Sequence record: MW349128.1
DNA length: 64,000 nucleotides
Direction: 5' to 3' (one strand)
Source: Staphylococcus phage Machias
Below, in pieces: positions 18,151-47,453 of the stretch. Positions within the stretch are counted from its first letter, which is position 1. Every line of letters starts with the position of its first letter. Both the position numbers and the translations under genes were made by a program. A model generated the notes under the pieces. It did no database searches. It worked only from the letters and a program-made list of their open reading frames with translations, and was not told where the DNA came from.

Positions 18151-18188
18151 ATCCCAATACCTAAATTAATAGGTATTGGGATTTTATT
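18151..18188. terminator. Rho-independent terminator (ATCCCAATACCT ... AGGTATTGGGAT followed by TTTATT)
   Basis: 12-bp perfect stem plus T-run between convergent genes. Confidence 0.45.
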
Positions 18189-18900
18189 ATCCGAAAAATA
18201 ATTTTTTTCTATTAGAATTATAAATAGAGTTATTTTCCATTTTTTCAACTAATTCTCTTCTTTTTTCTCTAGCATCTCTTAAATCATCCATATTTAGATT
18301 TAATTCACCAAAAGTAGTTTGTAAATTTTGAAATCTACCTCTCATAGAGTATAATGACATTTGAACATCATATGAAGCTAATTCTAAAAAGTAATCATGC
18401 ATATTATTTGGTATTGAACCAAAATGTTTATCATGATAAGTATTTGCAATTATTAATAGATTAGTTGTACTCATAACAGATCCATTCATTATCTCTATTT
18501 TATTAGGATGAAGATATCTAAATGTAGATGGATTTAAATTAATAGCCATTAAATCTGCCATCATTTGAGAGTCAATAGGTGAACCCATCATAAAACCTGC
18601 ATAAGGACTCATACTACCAGCATACCCAGTTAAATTAGAAATATTGTTATTAGCACCAATCACTCTATTAATATTAACTATTGGATTTGGTGAATCAATA
18701 TAATAAACATTCTGAGTTCCTTCTACTTTATCTTCAGGCTTTACTATTATTCTTTCTTGTTTAGGATGAAATTTACTAAAAGTAGGAATTGTAAATCTTT
18801 CTACTGTTTTAATAATCTCATCAGGATTTAGTTCTAACTCATTAAACAGAAATCCTGTATCACGTTCTATATAATTAAGTACTTCTGTATTAGTTATCAT
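18187..18900 (-). CDS. Hypothetical protein (237 aa), downstream of the prohead protease
   Basis: Complete ORF. Confidence 0.45.
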   Translation of the reverse strand: MITNTEVLNYIERDTGFLFNELELNPDEIIKTVERFTIPTFSKFHPKQERIIVKPEDKVEGTQNVYYIDSPNPIVNINRVIGANNNISNLTGYAGSMSPYAGFMMGSPIDSQMMADLMAINLNPSTFRYLHPNKIEIMNGSVMSTTNLLIIANTYHDKHFGSIPNNMHDYFLELASYDVQMSLYSMRGRFQNLQTTFGELNLNMDDLRDAREKRRELVEKMENNSIYNSNRKKLFFG

Positions 18901-18923
18901 AAACTATATCACTTCCATACATA

Positions 18924-20258
18924 TTATTTAAAGTTTCTATAGAAATCATCAAGTCCATTAAGAACAGATTCTTCTAAGAAAACTTTAATAGTTTTATTAC
19001 TTTCTTTAATTGAAGCTAATTGAGATCCTTTATCGTAAATGATATTAGATTCATCAGCTTTATCAAATCCCATATCTTCAGCGATATATTTGATATTGTC
19101 TGAATTTTCTTTAATATAAGTTAAAACTTCTCTAGGAGAAAATTCTGTAACTTTACCGTTAGAAAACATATCAATTGATTCATTAACCATTTGTAAATCA
19201 CTAGTATTGTAATTATTATGATTCTCTGAAATTATATTTTGGATATAAGAATCTTGATGTGATGGAATTACACGTTATCTTAACTATATGATTTTCATAT
19301 AGACGAGACTATATCTTCCTAATTTATATTAGGTAATATATTTAGTCGTTGAACGGAATTTAATCCGATGCTGATTATCTTAATAAAGATTTCCAGCAAT
19401 TAATATTATTTATACTAAGCAATAATTTTTTACCCAGTCATACGTACATCTTAGCTATATGGTTTCCATATAGACGAGACTATATCATACTCTTAGTAAG
19501 AGCGAATATATTTAGTCGTTGAACAACTTGTATTAAGTTGATGCTAATTGGCTTAATTAAACTTCTTAGCAATTAATATTCTTTTTCATTATATATCACT
19601 ATATAAAGCTGCTATAATTTAACAGATTAATCTTAAAGGTTTAGTAACTTCTACTTCACCATTAGGTTTTCTTTCTATTTTACTAAAACCACGCATTGAG
19701 AAAGATACATCAGATTTTTGTCCAATTAAACCTTTCATATCCTTACCAGCTGATGTTTGAGCTGTTTCTACTTCTCCCATTAATTTATTACCATTCCACC
19801 AAGTTCTAGTGATAATATGAGAAATATTACGTTGATCAATATACATTTGACGTTTAGGTTCATCACTTAAAGGATGACCTGCAAATTATTATTCTTTATT
19901 ATTTTAATAAAGATTAGACTATATCATCTAGGTTATATATTTAGTCGTTGAACAACTTGTATTAAGTTGATGCTGATTACTTTAAATAAGATTTCAGCAA
20001 TTAATATAATTTAACGTGAGCCATTTTAACCTAAAACTCACCATAAAAAGTTCTTCTTGCTAATTTTTCTTGTACTACTGGACTATCTAAACCACTTTGG
20101 ATAACATCTTTACGATAAACACGACCATTACGGTTTTGTCTATCAGCTTCTTGTAACTCAGCAATGAATCTAACTGATTTATTATTATCTTGAACTACTT
20201 CTGGTTGAGAAGTTGTATTAGATTCATTAATAATGTAAGCTTTAATATCTTTAGACAT
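18924..20258 (-). CDS. T4 gp21-like prohead core protease, split into 4 exons by three group I introns. Approximate exons: 20258..20034, 19881..19624, 19438..19424 (micro-exon), 19270..18924.
   Basis: Exon translations NRNGRVYRKD, GEF/GHP, ISHII, WWNGNKLMGEV, VSFSMRGFS align block by block with the NRNGRIYP / EWEHP / SSRGVG blocks of T4 gp21 as recalled from memory. Each ORF fragment stops within 0-2 codons of an intron 5' end, and reading-frame continuity can be restored across introns. Confidence 0.6.
19271..19423 (-). ncRNA. Group I intron (about 150 nt, no ORF) in the prohead protease gene
   Basis: P AATTGCTGGAAA, Q AATCAGCATC, R GTTCAACGACTAAAT, P8 CCTAATATAAATTAGG, S GAAGATATAGTC, P9 CTATATGAAAATCATATAG. 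Confidence 0.55.
19439..19623 (-). ncRNA. Group I intron (about 185 nt, no ORF) in the prohead protease gene, with covarying P/Q elements
   Basis: P TTAATTGCTAAGAAG and Q AATTAGCATC keep P4 pairing by compensatory changes; R GTTCAACGACTAAAT; P8 hairpin; S GATATAGTC; P9 hairpin CTATATGGAAACCATATAG. Confidence 0.55.
19882..20033 (-). ncRNA. Group I intron (compact, about 150 nt, no ORF) in the prohead protease gene
   Basis: On the minus strand: P TTAATTGCTGAAA, Q AATCAGCATC, R GTTCAACGACTAAAT, S GATGATATAGTC, then a P9 hairpin CTTTATTAAAATAATAAAG. Confidence 0.6.
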
Positions 20259-20345
20259 CTATTTATACTTCCTTTCAAATTTTGATTGTAAATTAAGAAT
20301 ATTTCTATGTTATTCTTCTGAATTTAACAATCTTTTATTAGATTA

Positions 20346-21383
20346 ATGAAATATATGATAGGAGGAAAATCTTTGAAAAGTTTTGAAGAAGTAAAAGATA
20401 TATTACTTAATATTAAAGAACAAACGGATGAAAATTCTTTTCCTAATGAAGCTTATGATTATTTAGTTGATATTGAGAAGTATGCTAATATTGATAGTTT
20501 TACGAATGATCAAATTAGAAAAATTGTAAAATATCTAGTAGGTATTAAAGATTCATTAGAAAGATACGAAATTGAAAATGAACAATCTGAAATGGCAATA
20601 AATATGGTTCTTCATAAAATAGAAACTCTTAAAGATAGATATAATACACTTTATATCAATAATCGTATTCCTAATAATGGTTATATTGATAGTTTATATA
20701 AAGAAGATTTTAGTTCAAATAAAAGTGCAGAATTTAATTTTAAACAATTAACTGTAGCTTTAGCTGAAAGTCCTGCTGGTTCTAAATTAGAAAGAAAAGC
20801 TGTTATTAACTTCTTAATGGAAGGTAGTATGAATTATCTTAATGAAGCTTATGATGATGACGATGATGAAGATTATCTTGATGGTCTTGATAGTAGCTTT
20901 GAAACCTCTAAAGAACCTAAAGTTGCTGAAAAGAATTTAAATAAATTAATTGGTTCTGTTAAGAAAGCTACTGCTTCATCTAAAAATATGGATGACAAAC
21001 AATTAGCTAAAGCAAATAGAATTCGTTTTGTAAGAGCTATTTTAACAGCAATAATCTTCTGTATTGGATTAGAAGTAAGTGCTGGTGTTATTGGTAAAGC
21101 TAAAACTGCTTTATTAGGATTATTGGTTGCTATTGTGTATAATAGTACTAAAAATAGTGAACTTAATAGATTAATTATTGTACTAGAAGAAAGAATTCAA
21201 TCATTAGAAAATAAAATCGATTCAACTGATAATGAACAAAAGAGAAAAGAATTAAGAATATTAAAATCAGACTTAGAAGGTCAATTGAAAAAAGCAAATT
21301 TCCAAAAGAAAGCTATAGATAAAACTAAAAATGCTATCTCTCGTGGAGATGTAAATGACAGTGGTAATGACTATGGATATTAA
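20346..21383 (+). CDS. Hypothetical protein (345 aa) with an acidic stretch, internal TM-like segment and coiled-coil C-terminus; possible morphogenesis or scaffold-associated protein
   Basis: Complete ORF immediately upstream of the acidic scaffold-like ORF, overlapping it by 29 nt. Confidence 0.35.
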   Translation: MKYMIGGKSLKSFEEVKDILLNIKEQTDENSFPNEAYDYLVDIEKYANIDSFTNDQIRKIVKYLVGIKDSLERYEIENEQSEMAINMVLHKIETLKDRYNTLYINNRIPNNGYIDSLYKEDFSSNKSAEFNFKQLTVALAESPAGSKLERKAVINFLMEGSMNYLNEAYDDDDDEDYLDGLDSSFETSKEPKVAEKNLNKLIGSVKKATASSKNMDDKQLAKANRIRFVRAILTAIIFCIGLEVSAGVIGKAKTALLGLLVAIVYNSTKNSELNRLIIVLEERIQSLENKIDSTDNEQKRKELRILKSDLEGQLKKANFQKKAIDKTKNAISRGDVNDSGNDYGY

Positions 21384-22228: not shown

Positions 22229-23824
22229 ATGTTGAGTGCAAATAGAATTAAAGATGAATTCTCTAAACTCTTAGAGGATATCGAACAAAATATCAACGAA
22301 CAGTACAAATTAAGTACAGTTGGTAATGACTTCGCTTCAATTGCTACTGATGACGTAGTATTTGAAAGTTATAAAGATCAATTATTAGAAGGTTTTGATG
22401 AAGAGGAGCAGCTTTCTTTAGAAAGTATGTTAGATAATACTCGTGAAGAAATCTTATTAGAGTCTTCAATGGGACCTATCCAACCTTATGCTTCATTATC
22501 TATGCCTATCTTAGTTAAACTTTGGGCTCGTTTAGCTTTAACTGAAGCTTTACCAACTCAAGTTGCTAATAAACCACAATTCACAGTGCCAATCTTAACA
22601 CCTTACGTTGTAGATGCTGATGGAAACAAACATGCATTACCTGAATCAATTAATAACACACCTGAAACTTTAGTAGGATTAGTTCCTCTTAAAGAAGAAG
22701 TTACAATTTCTGGTGGTAAAGTTGAAGCTTACGATTTATTCGATGGCTTAAAAGAAGGTAAAGAAGTTCGTAAAGGCATTGATCGTGTTGACCGTAAATT
22801 CAAAGTTGTAGAAGCTAAATGGAGCGATTCTTTTGATGTACGTACAAACGAAAAAGGATTTGTTGAATTAGGTTCTCAAGTTATTAAAATGGAAAATGAC
22901 TCTCTAATGGCAGAAGTTAAATACCCTACAAATGGTGACGGTGAAGTTGCTGTTGATACAGTATTAGGTAAAGTTGACGTTTCTAACGGTACTTTAGCTT
23001 TAGCTTCAACTTCTGGTAAATTAGAAGCAATTAAAATTAAAGGTTATGTAGCTTCTGAACAACATACTTCAGCTACTAACATTGAGCTTGGTTTAGATCG
23101 TAAAGATATCACTATCGATACAGCTCAACACATCGAGGCTACAGTACCTCTTGAAGTAATTCAAGATATGAAAGCTACTTATGATATCGATGGAGTTGCT
23201 CGTTTATCTGAAACAATGTCTCAATTATCTAGTCAAAAAGTTGACTTAGATATCATTGAATTCTTAGATCACGAATACGAAGAAACTGATGCTAAATATC
23301 ACTTCAGCTTCGATGTTTATCCACATAGTGATTACAGTGCTCACCCTAAAGATTGGTTAGAAGGTCTACGTGAAGTAATTGACCATACTACACAATCAAT
23401 GAAAAATGATTACAAACTTTACGATGTACAATTCGTTATCGTAGGTAACCCAGTTGACGTTCGTTTAATCCCTAACGTTTCTTGGACATTTAATGGTGGT
23501 ACTGAAGATTCTTACTCTAACGGAATCAAAATTAACTATTCATTAGGTGCTGCTTCAGGTACTGCTAACTACCGTATTATCGGTTCTGACTTAGTTCGTC
23601 AAGGTGAATTGACTATTATTGCAATTCCTCAACAAGACAACTATAAAACATTCATGTTCTACCCTTACACATTCAACGTTGTAAATGGTGGAGGATACTT
23701 GAATACTCGTAACCCTAATGTTCCTAACATGATGATGACTCGTAGATATACAGTTGAATCATTTGTTCCGATCATTGGTCGTATTACAATCAAAAACAAC
23801 AACGGTTCAGTATACGCTCGTTAA
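22229..23824 (+). CDS. Major capsid protein (531 aa)
   Basis: Strong SD AAAGGAG, higher GC and codon bias typical of a highly expressed structural gene, downstream terminator, position after the scaffold-like gene, size typical of a myovirus major capsid protein. Confidence 0.55.
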   Translation: MLSANRIKDEFSKLLEDIEQNINEQYKLSTVGNDFASIATDDVVFESYKDQLLEGFDEEEQLSLESMLDNTREEILLESSMGPIQPYASLSMPILVKLWARLALTEALPTQVANKPQFTVPILTPYVVDADGNKHALPESINNTPETLVGLVPLKEEVTISGGKVEAYDLFDGLKEGKEVRKGIDRVDRKFKVVEAKWSDSFDVRTNEKGFVELGSQVIKMENDSLMAEVKYPTNGDGEVAVDTVLGKVDVSNGTLALASTSGKLEAIKIKGYVASEQHTSATNIELGLDRKDITIDTAQHIEATVPLEVIQDMKATYDIDGVARLSETMSQLSSQKVDLDIIEFLDHEYEETDAKYHFSFDVYPHSDYSAHPKDWLEGLREVIDHTTQSMKNDYKLYDVQFVIVGNPVDVRLIPNVSWTFNGGTEDSYSNGIKINYSLGAASGTANYRIIGSDLVRQGELTIIAIPQQDNYKTFMFYPYTFNVVNGGGYLNTRNPNVPNMMMTRRYTVESFVPIIGRITIKNNNGSVYAR

Positions 23825-23908: not shown

Positions 23909-25078
23909 ATGGTATCTTTAAAAGAAGAAATACAATTAAATAAAATAAATAAAATAATGAACATCAATGAAGATGCATTTAACTTTGGTAAAAATACTTC
24001 ATTACTAAAAGAAATAGATGAAGAATTTGATTCATTAATTAGTAAATATAATTTTGAAAAATCTGATTTTGATGTAATTGATAAGAATGAATACAATGAT
24101 ATTGCAAAAAGAATATCAGATATTGCTAAGAAATTATTTAACACTAATATGAAATTAAAATTTATTGAAGCCGATAAGCGTGGAAAAGATAAATTTAGAG
24201 TAGGTTCAGTAGCACATACATTAATTAAACCTGAAGATATTAGAAATATTACAGATGGAATCACTAAAATTGTTATTGAAGAAAAAAATGGTATTTACTA
24301 TTCTAAACCTAGAGAAATTGAAGTAAATATTGAATTATCTTCATTGAGATATTTTATAGAAAAGAAAGAATCAGGTCAAAAAGAATTTACTACTCTTAAT
24401 GGTAGAATGTATACCTTTTTATTATTACATGAAATAGGTCATAATTTATTTTTCCCTGTAGAAATTAATGTACTCTCTGGTGGTAAAACTCCTACATTCG
24501 AACTCAAATATAAAGATAATAAACCAGTTCAGTTTAAGTACACTAAAGAAATAGAAGCTGACACTAGAAGAAATAGAGTATTAGCAGCTCCTATGATTCT
24601 TGCAATGTCAACATTAGTAATGTGTTTAACTGCTGTATTTATAGGTGCTAGCATATCAATGGGTTCATTTATGGGAACAGGAATGTTACTAACAAGTGCA
24701 AGTTTCAATAGAAAAACTACTATGGATTATAATCTTTCAGAAAGATCTGCCAACCAATTACCTGCTCTTTATGGATATTCTGTAGAAATGGTTAAATTTT
24801 ATGATTTAGTGTATAAAGCATTTAGAATGAAATCTGAAAAAAGACCTAATAACTTAATAGCTAAAGCTATGAGAGGACTTTTATATCCTATGAGTGGTTT
24901 TATTAAAAGTTATAAAGATTATCCAACAGATTCAATTGATGCAGTTATTAAGACATTAAAATTTGAAATTAGTAACAATAATAATTCTAATGAAGTTAAA
25001 AAAGAACTCAAAAGACAATTAGATGAAATTCAAAGAATAATAAAATATTCTAATAGACTTAATACTAAGACAAGATAG
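23909..25078 (+). CDS. Putative membrane-associated zinc metallopeptidase (HExxH motif LLLHEIGHNLF plus a hydrophobic TM stretch), 389 aa
   Basis: HEIGH zincin motif and a TM-like segment VLAAPMILAMSTLVMCLTAVFIGASISMGSFMGTGMLL in translation. Confidence 0.4.
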   Translation: MVSLKEEIQLNKINKIMNINEDAFNFGKNTSLLKEIDEEFDSLISKYNFEKSDFDVIDKNEYNDIAKRISDIAKKLFNTNMKLKFIEADKRGKDKFRVGSVAHTLIKPEDIRNITDGITKIVIEEKNGIYYSKPREIEVNIELSSLRYFIEKKESGQKEFTTLNGRMYTFLLLHEIGHNLFFPVEINVLSGGKTPTFELKYKDNKPVQFKYTKEIEADTRRNRVLAAPMILAMSTLVMCLTAVFIGASISMGSFMGTGMLLTSASFNRKTTMDYNLSERSANQLPALYGYSVEMVKFYDLVYKAFRMKSEKRPNNLIAKAMRGLLYPMSGFIKSYKDYPTDSIDAVIKTLKFEISNNNNSNEVKKELKRQLDEIQRIIKYSNRLNTKTR

Positions 25079-25092
25079 TAAGAAAGAAGTGA

Positions 25093-28000
25093 ATGAAGAC
25101 TATGGCTATAACAAAATTAAAGAAAAAAATTTATTACGATTATAAAACTAATAACGTAAGCTTTTTAAGAGTTGCTAAAGAACTTAAAGATAATAATATA
25201 CAAAATTATGGTCTACCATTAACTCTATATGATAAGAAATTAATTGGCGTTGATCCTTGGGATGAAGATTTAGATAATGAAATGAAAACTCGTGTTATTA
25301 GGGAAGCTAAACTTAATATATGGTTTTATTTAAGAGAAGTTATCAGAGTTCCAGTTCCAGGTGGTAAGGTAATGTATGAACTTCATAGAGGTAACTTAGC
25401 TATGACGTTTTGTATGCTGCATAATTTAGATACTGCAATAATGTTACCACGTCAGCACTATAAAACATATTCTGCAGTATGTTATTATTCATGGATTATG
25501 TTATTGGTAGGTAATAACTATACAATGTTATTTACACATAAATCATACTCGGACACTACTGAAAACCTTAAAAGATTAAAAAATCTATTCAAAGAGAAGT
25601 GTTTACCTGAATATGTATTAGCTAACTTTGGAGATAAAAATGATAGAGATAAAATTAATGAATTTTCTTTAGCAAGTAATAACAACACAATAAAAACAGT
25701 ATCACCTCCAACAAATGCTGAGAGTAAAATACGTGCTCTCATTAAACTCTATTAACTGCTGAAAAAGATACTAAACCAATCAGCATCAATCAAATTGATT
25801 GTTCAACGACTAAATATAGAGATAATTAATATTATAAGATATAGTCTAGTGTGTATGAATATCATACAATGTATTACGGCAAACAAAGCAGGAAGAGGTA
25901 GCACCGTATGTAGATGCAGTGCATAAAGATTTTTAATTGCTGGAAGACTAATAATGAAGTTAATCAGCATCACTTTAATTAGTGTTCAACGACTAAATAA
26001 AATCAATTTTAATAATTTTTACTGTTAACATTCCTTTATCAGTACGATAACGGAGGGATAAAATGCCTAAAGGTGTTAAAAGTAAAGAAAAATTCATAGA
26101 ACAAAAAAATAAAACTTTTAAAGAAATAAAAGATATCAATGGAGATAAATTTGAAATACTGGGAGAGTATAAAAATTCTAAAGAACCAATTAAATGTCAT
26201 TGTAATATATGTGATAGAGATTTTTTCTTACCTACTGAAAAACTAAGATTAAAAAGAAAATTCTGTAATAGAAAAGATTGTAGATATTCAGAAAAACCCA
26301 AGAATTCTAAAGGTAAAGAAACTTTTTTAATAGAATTAAAAGATAAGTTCGGATTTAATTATACTTATATTGAAGGATTCAATGGAATGAATAAAAAGTG
26401 TAGATTCCGTTGTGGAAAATGTGGAAATATAAGATATTTTGCAAAGCCTTCTACTCTAATGGATAAAAGAAAGAAGTATAATTCAGTAAACTGTAACAGA
26501 TGTATAAATAATGAAAATTATATCATATTAGATAGTCAAGAATTATCTAAAAAGACAACAGAAGAGTTTCAAGGTGAATTAGATATGATATTTGGATATA
26601 ATAAATTTAATGTGTTAACTGAATATACTAGGAGCAAAGATTATATCTATTTGAAGAGTAATGACTGTGGACACAAATTTAAAACGAGACCAGATGATAT
26701 ACTTAAAAGAAAAAGATGTAGTGTATGTTCTAAAAGTATAGGAGAAATTGCCATCATTGAATTACTTCAAGAGAATAATGTAGAATATGAGAATGAAGTT
26801 ACTTTTGAAGGATCTAGTTTTAGATTTGATTTTTATTTTAAAAAAATAAATACTGTAGTTGAAGTAGATGGAAAAGGTCATATAAAAGGTTATGGAAATT
26901 TCATTAATGATAAAAGAAACAAAAGCAAAAGAACACCTGAAGATATAAAAAAATTAGATAATGAAAAAGATGAATTTATAAGAAGCAAAGGAATAAATAT
27001 GATACGTCTCCCTTACCAGAATAGAATAAATGAAGAATTAATTATCCCTATGAAAAAATTATTAAAATTATGATATAGTCTGATCTGCATGGATTATCAT
27101 GTAGTTTAACGTAAATGACCTATGGTTTGGCTTGATGAGTGGGCGTTTATACCGCATAATCAAGTAATGTTTGAAGCGATGAGTAAAAAGGCTCCATCTT
27201 TATAGAAATATAGATGATGAATAATATTAACTGCTGAAAAGTTTAAAAACCAATCAGCATCATTAAATAATGTTCAACGACTAAATTTATTAAATCTTAA
27301 AAAGATTATGATATAGTCTGATCTGCATGGATTATCATGCAGCTAACATAAATGACCAGCAATAAGTACAGCTTCAAGAATTGCAAAAGAAAATGGTTCT
27401 CCTTATGGACTTCTTATCACAACTACACCTAAAATGACTGGGTGAAGATAAATTAAAATTTATCTTAAGGACTTTATTAATTGCTGAAAGGTCCTTAGAG
27501 CTTAATGAGCTACAACGTGACTGGCAACAGTGAGCGTGATATGCTTAAAAATCATTAAGATTGGAAAATCAGCAGCTAATTTTCAATTTAATAAATTATT
27601 AAATCAATAATGAACAACTCTTTATACAAAAGATGTAGGAGTTGGTAATTTTGGATTTTTATGAAAAATTAAATAAAAAATTTGATAACAGTATAATAAC
27701 AAAAGAAAAATATATAAACGGCAATGAAAAGATTAAATTCTATTGTAAAAATTGTAAAAATTATTTTTATTCTAAACCTAGAAAAATTATTGAATCATCT
27801 TATAAATCATGTCATTTATGTAGGAAAAGGGAAAAAGAAAATATATTTAGGAATAATCTCATTAATATGATAAATAAAGAAATATATGAAATTATTGAAA
27901 TGAAAGATCCTATAAAAAATAATGAAAAATTTTCTTTAAAACATAAAGAATGTGGAAATATCTTTTCTATATCAGTGAGTAATTTTAAAAAAGGAAGAAA

Positions 28001-30190
28001 ATGCCCATATTGCTCAAATAAGCCTATGAAAAGGGATCAAAATTTCTTTTTAGAAAAAATAAATAATATTGATTCAAGTTTCTTAAAAGAATATGAATTA
28101 AAAAGCAATTATATAAGCGTTAACGAAAATATTAAAATTAAACATAAAGAATGTGGAAATATCTTTAATACTACCCCTAATAGAATTTATAGAGGTAATA
28201 GATGTAGTATGTGTTCACATAAATCTGATAAATATAATTTTAAAGAGGTAAAGAGTATAATAGAAAAAGATGGAAAATTTAAACTTTTATCTAATAATTA
28301 TATAAATAATAAATATAAATTAAAAATAAAATGTCTTAACTGTGGTAATATACAAGAGAAAAGTTTAGTTACATTTCAAGATAAAAGAAATAGAAAATGT
28401 ATATGTGAAAAATATTCTTTACCAATTCGTTATATAACAAATTTTTTAATAGATAAAAATATAAATTTTGAGCTAGAAAAAAGATTTGATAATTGTAGAA
28501 ATATTAGACCTTTACCCTTCGATATTTTTATAAATGATTTTAATATTCTAATTGAATATGATGGGGAACAACATTTTAAACCAATATATGGTATAGAAAA
28601 ACTCAATAAAACTAAAATAAATGATGAAATAAAAAATAATTTTTGTAATAAAGAAGGAATAGAATTAATTAGAATAAACTGTTATGATAATTATGAAGAT
28701 AAAATTGAAAATTTAGTTCAACGACTATCGAAAGTTGAGTATACATCGTGAGGATATATACAATATAAATGAGTAGAGTACAGCCAAGCGGTTAGTTTTT
28801 AAGTGATATTAGCTTAATATAATTCTATTAAATGGAAACATAAAGACGTGTATATTAACACATATACGTAAGATATAGTCTCAACGTTTAGGGAAAACCT
28901 AAAGAAGTTCATAAGAGAACTGGTATAGATTAGCGATCTATATTGAAGATTTTGAGTACTCTCGACACATCTCAAGGGCAATTTTTCTTTCAACAAATGA
29001 ATGAAGCAGCTCAATGGAATGAAAAAATATATGATTATTTTATTGATAGTGAAGAAGAAGGAAATTCTAAATTAGAAAAATACATGGAAGATAATTCAAA
29101 TAATGAATTCATGTATATAGAATATTCATATAAAGAATTAGGTAAAGATGAAAATTGGTTAGAAAAACAAAAGAGACAAATTGGTTCTTTAGAAGCTGTT
29201 AAACGTGAGATATTATTGGAATGGGCTTATAGTTCTGATGATTCATTATTCTCTGAAGAACAAATGACTGAAATATCTATGTATGCTAATAAAGAAATAT
29301 ATAATACTCTTGAATTTAATATTGATGGTAGAACTTATTATGTAAATATGATTAAATATATGGATAATATTACAGAGAAAAATTGGCTTATTGGTATTGA
29401 TATGTCTGGTGGTTTAGGACGAGATAATACAGCGTTTACTGTAGTGGATCCAGCTACTTTGGAACCAGTAATGACTTTTAAAAATAATGTAATTAATGGA
29501 CCTACATTCAGAAAATTAATTAAAGAATTGGTTAGTTTCTATATACCTAACGCTATATTAATACCTGAACGTAACTATGCAGGTTTAACAGTAATTGATC
29601 ATATGATATCTTATGATGGTTTAGAATCTAATTTATTCTATACGCTTAAAACTCGTGTAGCTGAAAAGCAAGTAGAAAATAAAAGTTTATTTAATGAAAT
29701 GTCTAGATATAGCAAAACTGAAAAAGTTAAAAAAGAAACTCGTAGATATGGTATTGATACAACTAAAAAATCTCGTGATATAATGTTAAATGAAATATTA
29801 TCTATGCTTGTTGAAGAAAAACCACATTTAATTAATAATAAACCACTTTTCCAAGAAATCAAATCTTTACAAATGATTAAAGGACGTATTGACCATCCAC
29901 CGGGAGGTCACGATGACTTAATGATGTCTTATTTATTCTGTTTATATGCGTATTACTATGAAAAAGATATTAATAAATTTGTAAAAATTAAATATGGTTC
30001 TAAACTCTCACCTAACAGTGAAAATGCAGAAGGAATGAAAAAAGAACAAGAAGCTAGAAGAAAAGATATTGCTTCAATTAAACGTATCAATAGTGTTATT
30101 GAAGGAAATGATATGAGTAATTCTATATTTGGTCAACAACAAAAACCAATGGATAACAATAATAAACGTATTATGGATTTATTCAAATAA
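25093..30190 (+). CDS. terL: Terminase large subunit, split into 5 exons by four group I introns. Approximate exons: 25093-25716, 25879-25907, 27118-27201, 27355-27439, 28937-30190.
   Basis: Walker A-like LPRQHYKT in exon 1; an Arg-finger-like ANKAGRGST micro-exon; Walker B VWLDEWAFIP in exon 3; coupling motif GLLITTTP in exon 4; nuclease domain (IGIDMSGG...D) in exon 5. Block order matches T4 gp17. Each exon fragment ends in a stop codon just inside an intron. Confidence 0.75.
25717..25878 (+). ncRNA. Group I intron T1 (about 160 nt, no ORF) in terL
   Basis: P TTAACTGCTGAAAAAG, Q AATCAGCATC, R GTTCAACGACTAAATAT, S AAGATATAGTC, P9 hairpin GTGTATGAATATCATACAAT, terminal G at 25878. Confidence 0.55.
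25908..27117 (+). mobile_element. Group I intron T2 in terL carrying a homing-endonuclease ORF in P8
   Basis: P TTAATTGCTGGAAG, Q AATCAGCATC, R GTTCAACGACTAAATAAAA before the ORF; S GATATAGTC overlaps the ORF stop (27071-27080); P9 and terminal G at 27117. Confidence 0.6.
26063..27073 (+). CDS. Intron-encoded homing endonuclease, Vsr/DUF559 (EDxHD, PD-(D/E)xK) type, with N-terminal Cys-rich zinc-finger-like repeats
   Basis: C-terminal FRFDFYFKKINTVVEVDGKGH ... GINMIRL matches the Vsr-like endonuclease signature; repeated CxxC...CxxC modules; lies inside an intron. Confidence 0.55.
   Translation: MPKGVKSKEKFIEQKNKTFKEIKDINGDKFEILGEYKNSKEPIKCHCNICDRDFFLPTEKLRLKRKFCNRKDCRYSEKPKNSKGKETFLIELKDKFGFNYTYIEGFNGMNKKCRFRCGKCGNIRYFAKPSTLMDKRKKYNSVNCNRCINNENYIILDSQELSKKTTEEFQGELDMIFGYNKFNVLTEYTRSKDYIYLKSNDCGHKFKTRPDDILKRKRCSVCSKSIGEIAIIELLQENNVEYENEVTFEGSSFRFDFYFKKINTVVEVDGKGHIKGYGNFINDKRNKSKRTPEDIKKLDNEKDEFIRSKGINMIRLPYQNRINEELIIPMKKLLKL
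27202..27354 (+). ncRNA. Group I intron T3 (about 153 nt, no ORF) in terL
   Basis: P TTAACTGCTGAAAAG, Q AATCAGCATC, R GTTCAACGACTAAAT, P8 AATCTTAAAAAGATT, S GATATAGTC, P9 CTGCATGGATTATCATGCAG, terminal G at 27354. Confidence 0.6.
27440..28936 (+). mobile_element. Group I intron T4 in terL with an extended P5 region and a homing-endonuclease ORF
   Basis: P2 hairpin GATAAATTAAAATTTATC; P TTAATTGCTGAAAGG; Q AAAATCAGCAGC; R GTTCAACGACTATCG inside the ORF 3' end; S AAGATATAGTCTC at about 28872; terminal G about 28936. Confidence 0.55.
27642..28751 (+). CDS. Intron-encoded homing endonuclease, Vsr/DUF559 (EDxHD) type, paralogous to 26063..27073; TTG start
   Basis: C-terminal PFDIFINDFNILIEYDGEQHF ... 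GIELIRI; repeated HKECGNIF ... CPYC zinc-finger-like modules. Confidence 0.55.
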   Translation: MVILDFYEKLNKKFDNSIITKEKYINGNEKIKFYCKNCKNYFYSKPRKIIESSYKSCHLCRKREKENIFRNNLINMINKEIYEIIEMKDPIKNNEKFSLKHKECGNIFSISVSNFKKGRKCPYCSNKPMKRDQNFFLEKINNIDSSFLKEYELKSNYISVNENIKIKHKECGNIFNTTPNRIYRGNRCSMCSHKSDKYNFKEVKSIIEKDGKFKLLSNNYINNKYKLKIKCLNCGNIQEKSLVTFQDKRNRKCICEKYSLPIRYITNFLIDKNINFELEKRFDNCRNIRPLPFDIFINDFNILIEYDGEQHFKPIYGIEKLNKTKINDEIKNNFCNKEGIELIRINCYDNYEDKIENLVQRLSKVEYTS

Positions 30191-32954: not shown

Positions 32955-35900
32955 ATGCCAAAAGAAATAGATTTAACTTCAGAAAAATTTAAAGATTATT
33001 CATATAACGAATTAAACTCAAGAGGTTCACAATTAAAAGATGGTAATTTAGATTTAGAATTTGAATTAGCTTCAGTTAAAAAATACTTTTTAGATAATGT
33101 AAATAAAAATGTAAGATACTTTAAAACTTATAAAGAAAAAATTAACTATTTAGTAGATAATGATTATATTGATGGAGATATGATCAAAAATTATGATTTT
33201 GAATTTATTAAAGGATTAATGAAAGAATTAATGGCTTATAAACATAGATTCACTCGTTTATTAGGAGCTAAAAAATTCTATGAACAGTATGCAATGAAAG
33301 ATGATGCAGGAGAAATCTTATTAGAACTATATGAAGATAGAATTTTATTTGTAGCTTTATATTTAGCTGACGGTGATGAAGAATTAGCTAGAAATATTGC
33401 TAATGAAATTATTACAGGAACTTTCCAACCTGCCACACCAACATTCCTTAATGCAGGTAGAGTACGTTCTGGAGAATTAGTAAGTTGTTTCTTATTAACT
33501 ATGGAAGACTCTTTATCATCTATTTATAGAAATATCTCTAATGTAGCTCAATTAAGTAAACGTGGTGGAGGCGTAGGTAAACTATATACGTTTCATTAAG
33601 ATTTTTGAAAATTATAAATCTTAAATGATACTAATGCCTACGAAAAATCGTGTGAACTCATACTAAAGGGGTGTCTAATTATAATAATTAGGCTAACGGT
33701 CATAGCAGTTAATTATGCTGGTAAGAGAGACTAAGTCCTATTAAATTGATAGGATAGAGTTAATACCGTGCCAAGCTTTATACTATTCATAGCTTCTAGA
33801 TGGGAGCTTGATAAAATGAAAGAAAATGAAATATTTAAACAATTAGAAGAATTTCCAGACTATGATTTTGGTAGTCATGGAACTATAATATCTTATAAGA
33901 CTAAAAATCCTAGAAAAATTATACCCAAGATTGATAAGAATGGTTATCATGAAGTAGGATTGAGAGATTATACAAATAAAAGAAAATACAGAAAAGCACA
34001 TAGACTTATTCTATTAGCACATAATTATATAGAAAATTCAGAAGATATGCAAGTAAATCATATAAATGGTAAACCAGATGACAATCGTTTATCTAATTTA
34101 GAATGGTGTACATCTAAAGAAAATATGAAACATGCATATAATATTCTTAGTAAAAATAAAGATAATAATAAATTTAAAATAGAAGTTTTGATTAAAGATA
34201 AAAATGATAATATTTTTAATTTTGAATCTATGAGTAAAGCTTCAGTATTTATCAAAAGTTCTGTTGGTGGTCTAAGATCTTTCTGGGTTAGAAGAAAAAG
34301 ACCTACAAATGAATTTATTAAATATAAAGATTATGATATAATGTTTAAGCCTAGTGAAAACTGGATTAAAGAATATGGAAAAGAAATTGTTTAAAGTTAT
34401 GAATAGTAAATTGAAGGTGTAGAGACTATCGAAAAGAAAGTTTAATTACTTTACTTAGTAGAGTAGGTCAGAGATTAGTACTGATCGAAGTGCATGGCAT
34501 ATTATTTTAAATAATATGAAGATATAGTCCACTCATTATAGAAATATAGTGGTTAAAGTGATTAGTTTAAGTAATTTACGTGCTGACAATGATCCAATTA
34601 AAGGTGTTGAAGGTGCAGCTTCAGGTGTAGTTCCAGTTATGAAAGTATTTGAAGATACTTTATCATATGTAAATCAACTGGGTTAATTTTAATGGCTCAG
34701 TATAAATATTGTTAATTGCTGGAAAAGTTTACAAGCTTAATCAGCATCAATCAAGATGATTGTTCAACGACTAAATATAATAATACTTATTAATAGTATA
34801 AGATATAGTCTAATCTATATGAATTTCATATAGTTAATATAAATGCAACGTAATGGAGCTGGAGCTCTTTATTTAAATATTTTCCATAAAGATGTAGTAA
34901 AATTCTTAGATACTAAGAAAGAAAATGCTGATGAAAAAGTAAGATTAAAAACTATTTCATTAGGTTTAACAGTTCCAGATAAATATTATCAATTAGTTAA
35001 AGAAAATAAATCATTATATACATTTAGTCCATATGACATTAAAAAATATTACGATTTAGATTTCGATAGTATTGACTTTAATACTTATTATGATATCTTT
35101 GTAGATGATAAACGTATTAGTAAAGAGAAAATGTATGCTCGTGATTTAGAAACTACTATTAGTAAATTACAACAAGAATCTGGTTATCCTTATATCATTA
35201 ATATTGATACAGCTAATAGAGCTAATCCAATTAGTCATGGTACAATTAAAATGAGTAACTTGTGTAGCGAAATTCTACAAGTACAATACCCTTCATTAGT
35301 TGACGATAATCAACAATATGTTAAAACAGGAACAGACGTTTCATGTAATTTAGCTTCAACTATTGTACCTGGTTTAATGAAATCAAAAGACTTTGGTAAA
35401 TCAGTTGGAACTATGTTAAGAAGTTTAAATTCAGTAGCAGAAAAATCTAATATTGAAGCTGTACCTACAGTTAAGAAAGCTAATGATCTATTCCATACAG
35501 TTGGTTTAGGTGCAATGGGATTACACACTTATTTAGCTGAAAACCATATTCAATATGGATCAGAAGAATCTAAAGACTTTACTAATATTTATTTCATGTT
35601 ATTAAACTATTGGACATTAGTTGAATCAAATAAAATTGCTAAAGAAAAAGATGAGTCATTCTATTTATTTGAAAAAACTGAATATGCTGATGGCTCTTAC
35701 TTTGATAAACGTTATATTGGTAAAAATATTCAACCACGTACTGAAAAAGTTAAAGAATTATTTGAAGATATCTTTATTCCATCTGATAGTGATTGGGAAC
35801 AATTAAGAAATAATATTGTTATGGACGGTCTATACAATCAAAATAGATTAGCTGTAGCACCTAATGGTTCTATTGGTTATGTTAGAGAAGTATCACCTTC

Positions 35901-47199: not shown

Positions 47200-47453
47200 T
47201 GTTTAATTTCACCTCCTAATCATATTATATAAATATGTTAGGAAATTCCTGATATGAATTTTTTATCAGTATTTTATACAATCTCTAAATTAGTAATTTA
47301 GAGCACAGACTATATCATACTCATTGATATGAGTGAATATATTTAGTCGTTGGACAAGTCTTATTGACTTGATGCTGATTGAGATAATAATCTATTCCAG
47401 CAATTAATATTCTTTGCTAATTAAAATTACTTTTAATAGGGACTATTTGTGTG

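What the first reader, a model, noticed from the sequence alone, without database searches (positions are those of the whole stretch)
18924..20258. T4 gp21-like prohead protease interrupted three times, leaving a 15-nt micro-exon between two back-to-back introns
Exon translations align block by block with the T4 prohead core protease blocks as recalled: NRNGRVYRKD with NRNGRIYP, GEF.HP with EWEHP, VSFSMRGFS with SVSSRGVG. Between introns 2 and 3 only about 15 nt (19438-19424, ACTGGGTAAAAAATT, reading YWVKN with flanking bases) remain. Including this micro-exon restores a sequence resembling T4 LITYDVVPNPSDY (ours LRLI-YWVKN-LIPSHQDSY). Two group I introns separated by a 5-codon exon is a striking arrangement. 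It implies that accurate P1/P10 recognition on very short exons is required for an essential morphogenetic enzyme.
Basis: partly seen in the sequence, partly recalled or inferred. Interest (0 to 1): 0.65.

Follow-up and report, generated by a model that had tools for sequence, protein, structure and literature searches.

The report
Phage protease gene with 11-base micro-exon
The head-maturation protease gene of this Staphylococcus jumbo phage is split by three very small self-splicing (group I) introns, two of them separated by an exon of only 11 bases that encodes the enzyme's predicted catalytic aspartate; this is a real, extreme example of an arrangement already known in phages and mitochondria.

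Summary
The minus-strand gene 20258-18924 is interrupted by three insertions of 154, 179 and 159 nt that are absent from uninterrupted homologues in phages PALS_2 and SA1. Joining the four exons gives a 280-aa protein, 94% identical to those homologues, that passes the Pfam Peptidase_S77 (T4 gp21) threshold. All three insertions are compact group I introns without endonuclease genes. Each gives a full-length Rfam RF00028 match below the gathering score. Each has a U.G pair at the 5' splice site, a terminal G, a P7 G-binding helix, and P3-P9 helices with strong covariation across 63 distinct relatives. Junction 1 reads GES|GHP, not GEF.HP. All 11 bases are claimed by the neighbours' guide sequences: P10 of intron 2 takes nt 1-5 and P1 of intron 3 takes nt 5-11. 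Relatives differ in intron content. LY01 has a 6-nt micro-exon, and Bacillus phage BpSp has an endonuclease-bearing intron at exactly site 3. Precedents are Twort orf142 (23-nt exon), placozoan cox1 (1-nt exon) and intron-split proteases in MarsHill-like phages. I rate it a new member of a known kind. Splicing was not tested experimentally.

The parts
20268..20275 (-). Shine-Dalgarno-like AAAGGAAG, 9 nt upstream of the ATG
   Evidence: read directly from the sequence
20036..20258 (-). Exon 1 (223 nt): codons 1-74 plus the first base of Ser75; ends ...GGTGAGT
   Evidence: Alignment to the intronless PALS_2/SA1 genes. MarsHill carries contiguous GAGTCAGGTCAT. tblastn of the joined protein gives residues 1-74 at 100%.
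19882..20035 (-). Intron 1 (154 nt): group I, no ORF, no P2, and P8 reduced to 5 nt (CCUAG). IGS GCUCAC at 20021-20016 pairs with exon GUGAGU. Ends in G. An in-frame stop lies 2 codons into the intron.
   Evidence: Rfam RF00028 32.6 bits, E 3.5e-6, full length. R1 150.5 bits. P1 duplex -8.7 kcal/mol. P8 length. Orthologues occur at the same site in LY01, Madawaska and PB50.
19622..19881 (-). Exon 2 (260 nt): rest of Ser75 through Cys161. Contains catalytic His77 (GESGHP) and Ser136 (SFSMRG).
19443..19621 (-). Intron 2 (179 nt): group I with P1, P2, P3-P9. P1 is CUGU/GCAG (IGS 19612-19609). P10 guide UUAUA (19617-19613) pairs with micro-exon nt 1-5 UAUGA. Ends in G. TAA stop at its first codon.
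   Evidence: Rfam RF00028 45.5 bits, E 4.8e-10. R1 162.9 bits. LY01 orthologue shows P10 covariation: guide UUGUA with exon UACGA.
19432..19442 (-). Micro-exon TATGACTGGGT (11 nt): Tyr162, Asp163, Trp164 and 2 nt of Val165
   Evidence: Identical or synonymous to the contiguous TATGAYTGGGT of PALS_2, SA1, S6 and MarsHill. Flanked by a U at -1 and a terminal G on both sides. Asp163 aligns with gp21 Asp168.
19273..19431 (-). Intron 3 (159 nt): group I, no P2, no ORF. P1 is ACUGGGU/GCUUAGU (IGS 19420-19414), using micro-exon nt 5-11. P10 guide AAUUAU (19427-19422) pairs with exon-4 GUAAUU. Ends in G.
   Evidence: Rfam RF00028 41.6 bits, E 7.3e-9. R1 149 bits. P1 duplex -6.6 kcal/mol. Bacillus phage BpSp has an ORF-bearing intron at the identical site with IGS GCUCAGU.
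18924..19272 (-). Exon 4 (349 nt including the TAA stop): last base of Val165 through Lys280, the C-terminal scaffold-like part
   Evidence: dN/dS 0.14 against PALS_2

Best explanation
The window comes from a Staphylococcus jumbo phage that is 99.5% identical to AH12 (S6/PALS_2/MarsHill group). Its single-copy head-maturation protease gene (MEROPS S77, T4 gp21 type) has been invaded at three sites by members of one family of very small group I introns. These introns lack homing-endonuclease genes.

Inferred mechanism: the gene is transcribed as one precursor. Each intron folds into a group I core (P3-P9, with a P3/P7 pseudoknot and a G-binding pair in P7). Each selects its 5' splice site through a P1 helix ending in a U.G pair and excises itself through two guanosine-initiated transesterifications.

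The result is a 843-nt reading frame encoding a 280-aa protease. The catalytic His77 codon lies two codons downstream of intron 1. The predicted third triad residue, Asp163, is encoded in the 11-nt micro-exon.

The micro-exon is fully occupied by pairing with its neighbours. Nt 1-5 (UAUGA) pair with the P10 guide of intron 2. Nt 5-11 (ACUGGGU) form P1 of intron 3. The two introns can therefore act independently and in either order.

Shown here: the insertions, the exon joins, family membership of the protein, the group I sequence and structure signatures, and purifying selection on all exons. Inferred: actual self-splicing, the order of splicing and its efficiency.
For: (1) The three insertions are absent from the PALS_2 and SA1 genes, and the exon joins reproduce their protein: 262/280 identical, CYDWVV and GESGHP restored. 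MarsHill has the joined sequences contiguous.

(2) The joined protein matches Pfam Peptidase_S77 above its cut-off across all junctions, PHROG head maturation protease and gp21 by BLASTP with H/S/D aligned. H85/S140 are catalytic in T4 (PMC12991175), and the triad is His-Ser-Asp (PMC5694885).

(3) Each insertion gives a full-length Rfam Intron_gpI hit, E 5e-10 to 3.5e-6. RNAalifold recovers P4, P5, P6, P7 and P9 with compensatory changes.

(4) Across 63 distinct family members, 94.7% of cells are paired, against 31-54% when partners are slid. P3, which was not part of the aligning model, is 92.5% paired with compensatory changes at 6 of 6 pairs.

(5) Every junction has U at -1 and a terminal G, with P1 duplexes of 4-7 bp.

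(6) The P10 guide and the micro-exon covary between the window and LY01.

(7) dN/dS is 0.13 overall and 0.14 in exon 4, downstream of all introns.

(8) The gene is single-copy in the window and in AH12. AH12, LY01 and Madawaska carry these introns and their records name a host or isolation source, so I take them to be propagated isolates.

(9) In Jug phages, 37 of 76 predicted group I introns (average length ~206 nt across 2,513 introns) were confirmed as spliced by metatranscriptome reads (PMC12880540).
Against: There are no RNA or protein data for this phage, so splicing is inferred.

All three Rfam scores lie below the family's gathering score (45.5, 41.6 and 32.6 against 50).

Intron 1 lacks P2 and has only 5 nt where P8 should be. 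P1 of intron 2 is only 4 bp (-2.9 kcal/mol), so splicing may need protein help.

The 5'/3' junctions of intron 3 can be slid by one base (a 12-nt exon giving GTA instead of GTT). That changes no amino acid, and only the U/G rule favours the 11-nt version.
Confidence: 0.88

Rival explanations
1. One reading: the same three introns, but with a 15-nt micro-exon ACTGGGTAAAAAATT (19438-19424) that gives LRLI-YWVKN-LIPSHQ, and with GEF.HP at junction 1.
For: These junctions also obey U at -1 and a terminal G. They keep the frame and the same protein length.
Against: Uninterrupted homologues read LRLICYDWVVIPSHQ and GESGHP. MarsHill has TATGACTGGGTAGTAATT and GAGTCAGGTCAT contiguous. BpSp's intron sits exactly after TATGACTGGGT.
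Confidence: 0.02
2. The gene is a decaying pseudogene or a split gene. The insertions are not removed, and the annotated fragments (three 'hypothetical proteins' in AH12) are either non-functional or act as separate polypeptides.
For: GenBank records for AH12, LY01 and S6 annotate only separate ORFs. There are stop codons at or just after each 5' splice site. No expression data exist.
Against: All exons, including exon 4, show dN/dS of 0.08-0.14. The fragment ORFs would start at internal Met codons and would omit His77 and Asp163. The gene is the only S77 protease copy in what I take to be propagated isolates. The insertions carry complete, covarying ribozyme cores.
Confidence: 0.04
3. The introns are spliced, but a fraction of transcripts skips the micro-exon (5' splice site of intron 2 joined to the 3' splice site of intron 3). 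This yields a frameshifted 179-aa product without Asp163, so the tandem pair lowers or regulates the dose of active protease.
For: Intron 2's P10 guide pairs better with the start of exon 4 (7 bp, -3.0 kcal/mol) than with the micro-exon (5 bp, -1.0 kcal/mol). Exon skipping between similar tandem group I introns was seen in Twort orf142 and Coxiella 23S rRNA, and was reproduced with engineered Tetrahymena pairs (PMC10136302).
Against: This rests purely on thermodynamics; the duplexes are AU-rich and weak. There is no evidence that the truncated product exists or matters. Introns 2 and 3 are only 70% identical, which is less alike than the 'highly similar' Twort pair.
Confidence: 0.2

Closest known systems
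Staphylococcus phage Twort orf142: three group I introns in one late gene, 23-nt exon between I2 and I3 (Landthaler & Shub 1999, as summarised in PMC10136302)
   Same: A Staphylococcus phage late structural-module gene. Three related group I introns without endonuclease genes. A very short exon between two of them. Potential for exon skipping.
   Different: Different phage family and gene. The exon here is 11 nt (6 nt in relative LY01) against 23 nt. The introns here are much smaller (154-179 nt) and lack P2 (I1, I3) and P8 (I1). Splicing has not been shown experimentally here.
Intron-split prohead protease genes of AR9/PBS1-like jumbo phages (AR9 YP_009283018, BpSp gp191/189/187, MarsHill, Madawaska; bioRxiv 10.1101/2020.12.14.422802)
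   Same: The same gene and the same two hot spots, next to the catalytic His motif and at the YDWV motif. BpSp's second intron is at exactly the window's site 3 with a matching guide sequence. Madawaska is annotated with three exons.
   Different: None of those records has introns at both site 2 and site 3, so none has this micro-exon. BpSp, MarsHill and S6 introns carry endonuclease ORFs. The MarsHill/S6 intron is a different subfamily, 7 nt upstream of site 1.
Placozoan mitochondrial cox1 single-nucleotide micro-exon flanked by two group IB introns (PMC5436844)
   Same: A micro-exon created by the insertion of a second group I intron next to an existing one. It encodes part of an essential catalytic-site residue.
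   Different: An organellar setting with larger introns, where protein-assisted splicing is likely. The exon is 1 nt, so P1/P10 pairing to the exon is impossible there, whereas here the 11 nt are fully used for pairing.
Short group I introns (average ~206 nt) of gut 'Jug' jumbo phages (PMC12880540)
   Same: Many small group I introns per genome interrupt essential genes, and splicing was confirmed by metatranscriptomes. The same Q/R core motifs are found in IMG/VR jumbo contigs that match model R1, including adjacent tandem pairs. I assume but did not check that these contigs are Jug phages.
   Different: Different hosts (Bacteroides/Phocaeicola) and genes. In the passages I read, micro-exons are not described.

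Membership tests
Group I self-splicing intron (Rfam RF00028) | Score at or above the curated Rfam gathering threshold (50 bits) | tested here: not met
   45.5, 41.6 and 32.6 bits. The hits are full-length (model 1-253) with E 4.8e-10 to 3.5e-6 in a 1.4-kb search. There were no hits at gathering in the whole window. The shortfall comes from deleted peripheral helices (P2, P8, long loops).
Group I self-splicing intron (Rfam RF00028) | Conserved core helices P3-P4-P5-P6-P7-P9, including the P3/P7 pseudoknot, supported by covariation | tested here: met
   RNAalifold recovers P4, P5, P6, P7 and P9, with 12 of 29 pairs compensatory. On 63 distinct sequences, 94.7% of cells are paired against 31-54% slid, and P3 is 92.5% paired with 6 of 6 pairs compensatory.
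Group I self-splicing intron (Rfam RF00028) | P8 helix present | tested here: not met
   Introns 2 and 3 have P8 (CUCUU/AAGAG; CCUAAU/AUUAGG). Intron 1 has only CCUAG between P3' and J8/7. Ten of 63 distinct family members share such a deletion.
Group I self-splicing intron (Rfam RF00028) | 5' splice site after a U that forms a U.G wobble with an internal guide sequence (P1); intron ends in G | tested here: met
   GUGAGU/GCUCAC, CUGU/GCAG and ACUGGGU/GCUUAGU. All three introns end in G.
Group I self-splicing intron (Rfam RF00028) | G-binding P7 with a bulged nucleotide and a G-C pair | tested here: met
   ACGACUA / UAGUCU is invariant in all three (read). P7 pairs are 99.7% paired across the family.
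Group I self-splicing intron (Rfam RF00028) | GTP-dependent self-splicing | not testable with these tools
   Needs in vitro transcription/splicing or RNA-seq of infected cells.
Peptidase S77 (T4 gp21 prohead core protease) | Pfam PF03420 above the gathering score | tested here: met
   36.3 bits against 27, residues 37-179. S80 scores below its cut-off (21.4 against 23.4).
Peptidase S77 (T4 gp21 prohead core protease) | Catalytic His and Ser (T4 H85, S140) and the triad Asp conserved | tested here: met
   BLASTP to RB32 gp21 aligns H77/H85, S136/S140 and D163/D168. The catalytic role of H85/S140 comes from PMC12991175 and the His-Ser-Asp triad from PMC5694885. I could not check the residue number of the Asp in T4 against the structure paper.
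Peptidase S77 (T4 gp21 prohead core protease) | Located in a head-morphogenesis module | tested here: met
   Major head protein at 22229-23824 and a virion structural protein at 18187-18900. A terminase-like region lies downstream.
[quoted passage not shown] | Two complete group I introns in one reading frame, separated by an exon that must be kept for the correct product | tested here: met
   Introns 2 and 3 are each full-length model hits. The 11 nt between them equal the homologues' TATGAYTGGGT, and removing them shifts the frame.
Twintron (intron inside an intron) | The inner intron interrupts the outer intron's own sequence, with no exon sequence between them | tested here: not met
   The 11 nt between the two cores are exon sequence. 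Each intron is complete on its own.

The most novel reading that the evidence does not exclude
Every base of the 11-nt exon is claimed by the guide sequences of two neighbouring ribozymes, and intron 2's P10 guide fits the start of exon 4 better than it fits the micro-exon. The pair could therefore act as a group I alternative-splicing switch. Ordered or cooperative splicing would decide between active protease (exon included, Asp163 present) and a truncated 179-aa product, and so tune or time prohead maturation. Separately, the 154-nt intron 1, which lacks P2 and P8, would be one of the most reduced naturally functional group I ribozymes.
Probability: 0.1. Interest if true: 0.75.

Novelty: new member of a known kind. 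Interest (0 to 1): 0.45.

Why it matters
Annotation. In AH12, LY01, S6 and PB50 this essential gene is deposited as unrelated 'hypothetical', 'terminase' or 'homing endonuclease' fragments. The corrected four-exon model restores a complete S77 protease.

RNA biology. The locus offers a natural test of how short an exon can be while still serving as P10 partner for one group I intron and P1 partner for the next. It is 11 nt here and 6 nt in LY01, where the two pairings overlap by 3 nt and cannot form together. It also offers a set of 154-180-nt introns, some without P2 or P8, that must work in vivo because they sit in single-copy essential genes.

Evolution. There are five insertion sites in one 843-nt gene, clustered at the His and Asp catalytic motifs. 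Site 3 is shared with a Bacillus phage. Three introns in the window sit after the same heptamer ACTGGGT. The family also varies in copy number: a blastn search with intron 2 found 22-31 matching places in the AH12 and LY01 genomes and no match in the PALS_2, S6, SA1 or DC4 records. Together these give a compact system for studying how introns without endonuclease genes spread.

Tried and rejected
- Rfam at gathering thresholds over the whole window gave no hits. Only the permissive search of the 1.4-kb region showed the three sub-threshold full-length Intron_gpI matches. A permissive Rfam search of 24500-30000 gave nothing at E<=0.01, although the custom model finds introns there.
- The search for related loci with the joined protein in IMG/VR found no relatives.
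- phmmer against PDB sequences gave only a weak gp21 hit (E 0.03), so I fetched RB32 gp21 for a direct BLASTP instead.
- I could not retrieve the gp21 structure paper, so the Asp assignment rests on alignment plus PMC5694885.
- Literature searches for AH12, LY01 and PB50 and for 'smallest group I intron' returned nothing useful.
- Other readings rejected: twintron, split-protein, pseudogene, translational bypass (T4 gene 60 style) and intein. The reasons are given under rivals and membership; the inserts carry ribozyme cores and stops, and are absent at the DNA level from homologues.
- A possible pairing of intron 1's CCUAG with UUAGG near its 5' end is probably coincidental. PB50's orthologue keeps UUAGG but has a normal P8, and other P8-less family members have unrelated pentamers.
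- Not run, because Pfam and BLASTP already settled family membership: structure prediction and the large protein-database searches.
Full report
**What is in the sequence.**
The window is a Staphylococcus jumbo phage. Region 18700-20400 is 99.5% identical to phage AH12 and 86-89% identical to LY01, Madawaska, S6, MarsHill, PALS_2, DC4 and SA1.

On the minus strand an ORF starts at 20258 behind an AAAGGAAG ribosome-binding site and stops after 75 codons. Two further ORF pieces follow, at 19846-19619 and 19190-18924.

PALS_2 and SA1 carry an uninterrupted 843-nt gene (280 aa) at this position; SA1's is annotated 'prohead core scaffold protein and protease'. A nucleotide alignment of the window to these two genes shows three clean insertions and nothing else.

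**Exact anatomy (window coordinates, minus strand).**

| Part | Coordinates | Length | Notes |
|---|---|---|---|
| Exon 1 | 20258-20036 | 223 nt | |
| Intron 1 | 20035-19882 | 154 nt | |
| Exon 2 | 19881-19622 | 260 nt | |
| Intron 2 | 19621-19443 | 179 nt | |
| Micro-exon | 19442-19432 | 11 nt | TATGACTGGGT |
| Intron 3 | 19431-19273 | 159 nt | |
| Exon 4 | 19272-18924 | 349 nt | includes TAA stop |

The joined frame is 843 nt and encodes 280 aa, 262 of them identical to PALS_2.

These joins are the only ones that restore the homologues' GESGHP and LRLICYDWVVIPSHQ. Independent checks agree:
- MarsHill and S6 have a different intron 7 nt upstream. They carry GAGTCAGGTCAT contiguously, which equals window exon 1 end plus exon 2 start, including the unusual TCA serine codon.
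- MarsHill carries TATGACTGGGTAGTAATT contiguously.
- PB50's site-1 intron has a different 3' half but the same ...G|CAGGTCAT junction.
- Bacillus phage BpSp has an intron exactly after TATGACTGGGT.

Every junction has U at -1 and a terminal intron G.

That explains the misreading. They are contradicted by all the homologue comparisons.

One residual ambiguity remains. Intron 3 could be slid by one base, giving a 12-nt exon and GTA instead of GTT. That is synonymous and violates the U/G rule.

**The protein.**
- The joined product passes Pfam Peptidase_S77 (36.3 bits, cut-off 27) over residues 37-179, so the match crosses all three junctions.
- It matches PHROG head-maturation-protease families.
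- It aligns with gp21 of the T4-like phage RB32 so that H77, S136 and D163 face H85, S140 and D168.
- H85 and S140 are the residues mutated to make catalytically dead T4 gp21 (PMC12991175). The gp21 triad is described as His-Ser-Asp (PMC5694885).

Intron 1 therefore sits two codons upstream of the catalytic His codon, and the micro-exon encodes Tyr162-Asp163-Trp164-Val165(2 nt), including the predicted catalytic Asp.

The neighbourhood is a head module, with the major head protein at 22229-23824 and a virion protein at 18187-18900. The gene is single-copy in the window and in AH12.

dN/dS against PALS_2 is 0.13 overall. By exon it is 0.08 (exon 1), 0.12 (exon 2) and 0.14 (exon 4), so the part downstream of all the introns is under purifying selection too.

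**The introns.**
All three carry the classical P/Q/R/S motifs (AAUUGCUG, AAUCAGCA, GUUCAACGACUAAAU, GAUAUAGUC).

Rfam Intron_gpI matches each one end to end. The scores are below the gathering score because peripheral elements are missing: 45.5, 41.6 and 32.6 bits against 50, with E 4.8e-10 to 3.5e-6.

RNAalifold on 11 introns from this gene in four phages, plus one from the window's ribonucleotide-reductase-like gene, recovers P4, P5, P6, P7 and P9. Twelve of 29 pairs have compensatory changes.

I built a covariance model from that alignment (R1). It finds eight strong copies in the window and 188 matches once relatives and IMG/VR jumbo-phage contigs are included.

On the 63 distinct sequences among the best 150 matches:
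- 94.7% of cells form standard pairs, against 31-54% when partners are slid by 1-3 columns.
- The P3 helix was not in the model used for aligning. It is 92.5% paired with compensatory changes at all six pairs. This supports the P3/P7 pseudoknot typical of group I introns.

P7 has the bulged C and the G-C pair of the guanosine-binding site (read).

Only intron 2 has a P2. Intron 1 has just CCUAG where P8 should be, whereas its PB50 orthologue keeps a normal P8. The same kind of P8 loss occurs in 10 of the 63 distinct family members.

None of the three introns contains an ORF of 31 aa or more.

Stops follow each 5' splice site closely: 2 codons into intron 1, at the first codon of intron 2, and 7 codons into intron 3.

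**How the micro-exon is recognised.**

| Intron | P1 (exon / guide) | Strength |
|---|---|---|
| 1 | GUGAGU / GCUCAC | -8.7 kcal/mol |
| 2 | CUGU / GCAG | -2.9 kcal/mol |
| 3 | ACUGGGU / GCUUAGU | 7 bp, -6.6 kcal/mol |

All three end in a U.G pair.

Immediately 5' of intron 2's P1 guide lies UUAUA. It can pair with the first five micro-exon bases, UAUGA (P10). In LY01 the exon begins UACGA and the guide reads UUGUA, a compensatory change.

So micro-exon nt 1-5 serve P10 of intron 2 and nt 5-11 serve P1 of intron 3. The pairings share a single base, which means the two ribozymes could act in either order.

Intron 2's guide pairs even better with the start of exon 4: UGUAAUU, 7 bp, -3.0 against -1.0 kcal/mol. 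Exon skipping, as documented for Twort orf142 and Coxiella 23S rRNA (PMC10136302), is therefore conceivable. It would give a frameshifted 179-aa product. This is inference only.

**Variation among relatives.**

| Phage(s) | Intron content of the protease gene |
|---|---|
| PALS_2, SA1, DC4 | none |
| S6, MarsHill | one 1.18-kb intron carrying a LAGLIDADG-family ORF (Pfam match in MarsHill), 7 nt upstream of site 1 |
| Madawaska, PB50 | site 1, plus a site between TAYGAT and TGGGT (site 2') |
| LY01 | sites 1, 2 and 2', leaving a micro-exon of only 6 nt (TACGAT, L005 1256-1261) |
| Window, AH12 | sites 1, 2 and 3 |

In LY01 the P10 pairing (nt 1-5) and the P1 pairing (nt 3-6) overlap, so they cannot form together.

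Further afield, AR9 has an intron at GEAG|HP. BpSp has one there and another at exactly site 3. The BpSp site-3 intron has guide GCUCAGU and a 314-aa ORF in the P1 loop, and it matches R1.

That makes five insertion sites in one 843-nt gene, clustered at two catalytic motifs.

Introns at the same site are 81-95% identical. Introns at different sites are 61-77% identical.

**How the family spreads.**
- Intron 3's closest relative in the window is the intron at 34684-34845, in a ribonucleotide-reductase-like gene (76% identity). It sits after the same heptamer ACUGGGU and has guide GCUCAGU.
- ACTGGGT occurs six times in the window (1.8 expected). Three of the six are immediately followed by an intron.
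- A blastn search with intron 2 finds 22 places in AH12, 31 in LY01, 16 in PB50, 10 in Madawaska and 8 in MarsHill. The PALS_2, S6, SA1 and DC4 records do not appear among the matches.

This pattern fits a lineage-specific expansion. Candidate routes are endonuclease-mediated homing followed by ORF loss (as the BpSp site-3 intron suggests) and/or guide-directed reverse splicing into ectopic sites. I did not test which route applies.

**Comparison with what is known.**
- Korn et al. list the prohead scaffold/protease among the intron-disrupted genes of MarsHill-like phages and AR9, with exon counts taken from protein alignment (bioRxiv 10.1101/2020.12.14.422802). Madawaska's record has a three-exon join.
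- Twort orf142 has three group I introns with a 23-nt exon and shows exon skipping. Coxiella has a 34-nt exon (PMC10136302).
- Placozoan cox1 has a 1-nt exon between two group IB introns (PMC5436844).
- Gut Jug phages carry about 18 group I introns per genome, averaging ~206 nt. For 37 of 76 predicted introns, splicing was supported by metatranscriptomes (PMC12880540).
- IMG/VR jumbo contigs contain adjacent R1 hits only 2 nt apart. These imply other micro-exons of about 12-14 nt.

The arrangement is therefore a further, extreme member of a known kind. It is the shortest phage exon between group I introns that I could find described, but it is not unique even among its own relatives.

**Limits.**
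No transcript or protein data were available, so splicing, its order and its efficiency are inferred. The identification of Asp163 as the third triad residue rests on pairwise alignment and a secondary literature statement. The Rfam scores are sub-threshold, and family assignment rests on the full-length matches, the covariation and the splice-site rules.

Noticed in passing
L005 (Staphylococcus phage LY01, OR836606) 1074-1445; micro-exon at 1256-1261: LY01's protease gene has introns at site 2 and at a site between TACGAT and TGGGT. Only 6 nt of exon (TACGAT) lie between two group I introns. The P10 pairing (nt 1-5) and the P1 pairing (nt 3-6) overlap there.
   Followed up: partly
window 25093-30190 (+): A terminase-large-subunit-like region is fragmented by at least four group I introns: R1 hits at 25712-25881, 25887-26035 and 27173-27353, and a weaker one at 27436-27615. 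Two long intron ORFs lie at 26063-27073 and 27642-28751 (the second has a weak treble-clef Zn-finger match). The first two introns appear to be separated by an exon of only about 29 nt (about 25873-25901). I did not determine the exon joins.
   Followed up: partly
window 34684-34845 (+): A 162-nt intron of the same family interrupts a ribonucleotide-reductase-like gene (...VNQLG|QRNGAGALY...). It sits after ACTGGGT with guide GCUCAGU. It is the closest in-window relative of protease intron 3 (76% identity).
   Followed up: partly
window 19432-19438 (-), 27437-27443 (+), 34677-34683 (+): Three of the six ACTGGGT heptamers in the window are immediately followed by an intron. The terminase-region copy even shares ATGACTGGGT with the protease micro-exon. 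This suggests a common target sequence. For the 27449 intron I could not find a matching guide sequence.
   Followed up: partly
window 47272-47443 (-), with an ORF starting about 47198 (-): Another strong family member (R1 119.6 bits). An ORF begins just downstream of its 3' part (ATGAAAAAAGGAATAG...). The host gene and the ORF were not examined.
   Followed up: no
window 33590-33765 (+), 39685-39851 (-), 28785-28845 (+), 26996-27116 (+): Weak R1 hits (E 3e-4 to 0.85). They may be more divergent group I introns or the 3' halves of ORF-containing ones.
   Followed up: no
window 20036-20038 / 19880-19881, compared with L001 655-657: Alleles with an intron at or near site 1 encode Ser75 as TCA (GAGT|CAGG). 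Intronless PALS_2 and SA1 use AGT (GAGAGTGG). The intronless allele therefore lacks the U needed for the P1 U.G pair. This could reflect co-conversion of flanking exon sequence or resistance of the intronless allele to invasion.
   Followed up: no
IMG/VR loci, e.g. L054 4553-4893 (-), L057 11929-12283 (-), L016 3404-3746 (-), L030 7131-7981 (-), L090 385-1184 (-): Metagenomic jumbo-phage contigs (200-400 kb) carry the same intron family in runs of two to four. Some adjacent model hits are only 2 nt apart, which implies further micro-exons of about 12-14 nt (e.g. ACACTTTCCCAT). The host genes were not identified.
   Followed up: partly
AH12 OR455461 70377-71711; PB50 OR770614 42487-43673; LY01; S6: Public records annotate the protease exons as separate 'hypothetical protein', 'terminase large subunit' or 'homing endonuclease' CDSs. 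None records the introns or the micro-exon.
   Followed up: yes
window 19443-19448 (-): Intron 2 ends ...GATGTACG. The TACG just before the micro-exon resembles the first four bases of LY01's micro-exon TACGAT, which follows ...ATAATG there. It may be a remnant of a rearrangement between site-2 and site-2' alleles.
   Followed up: no
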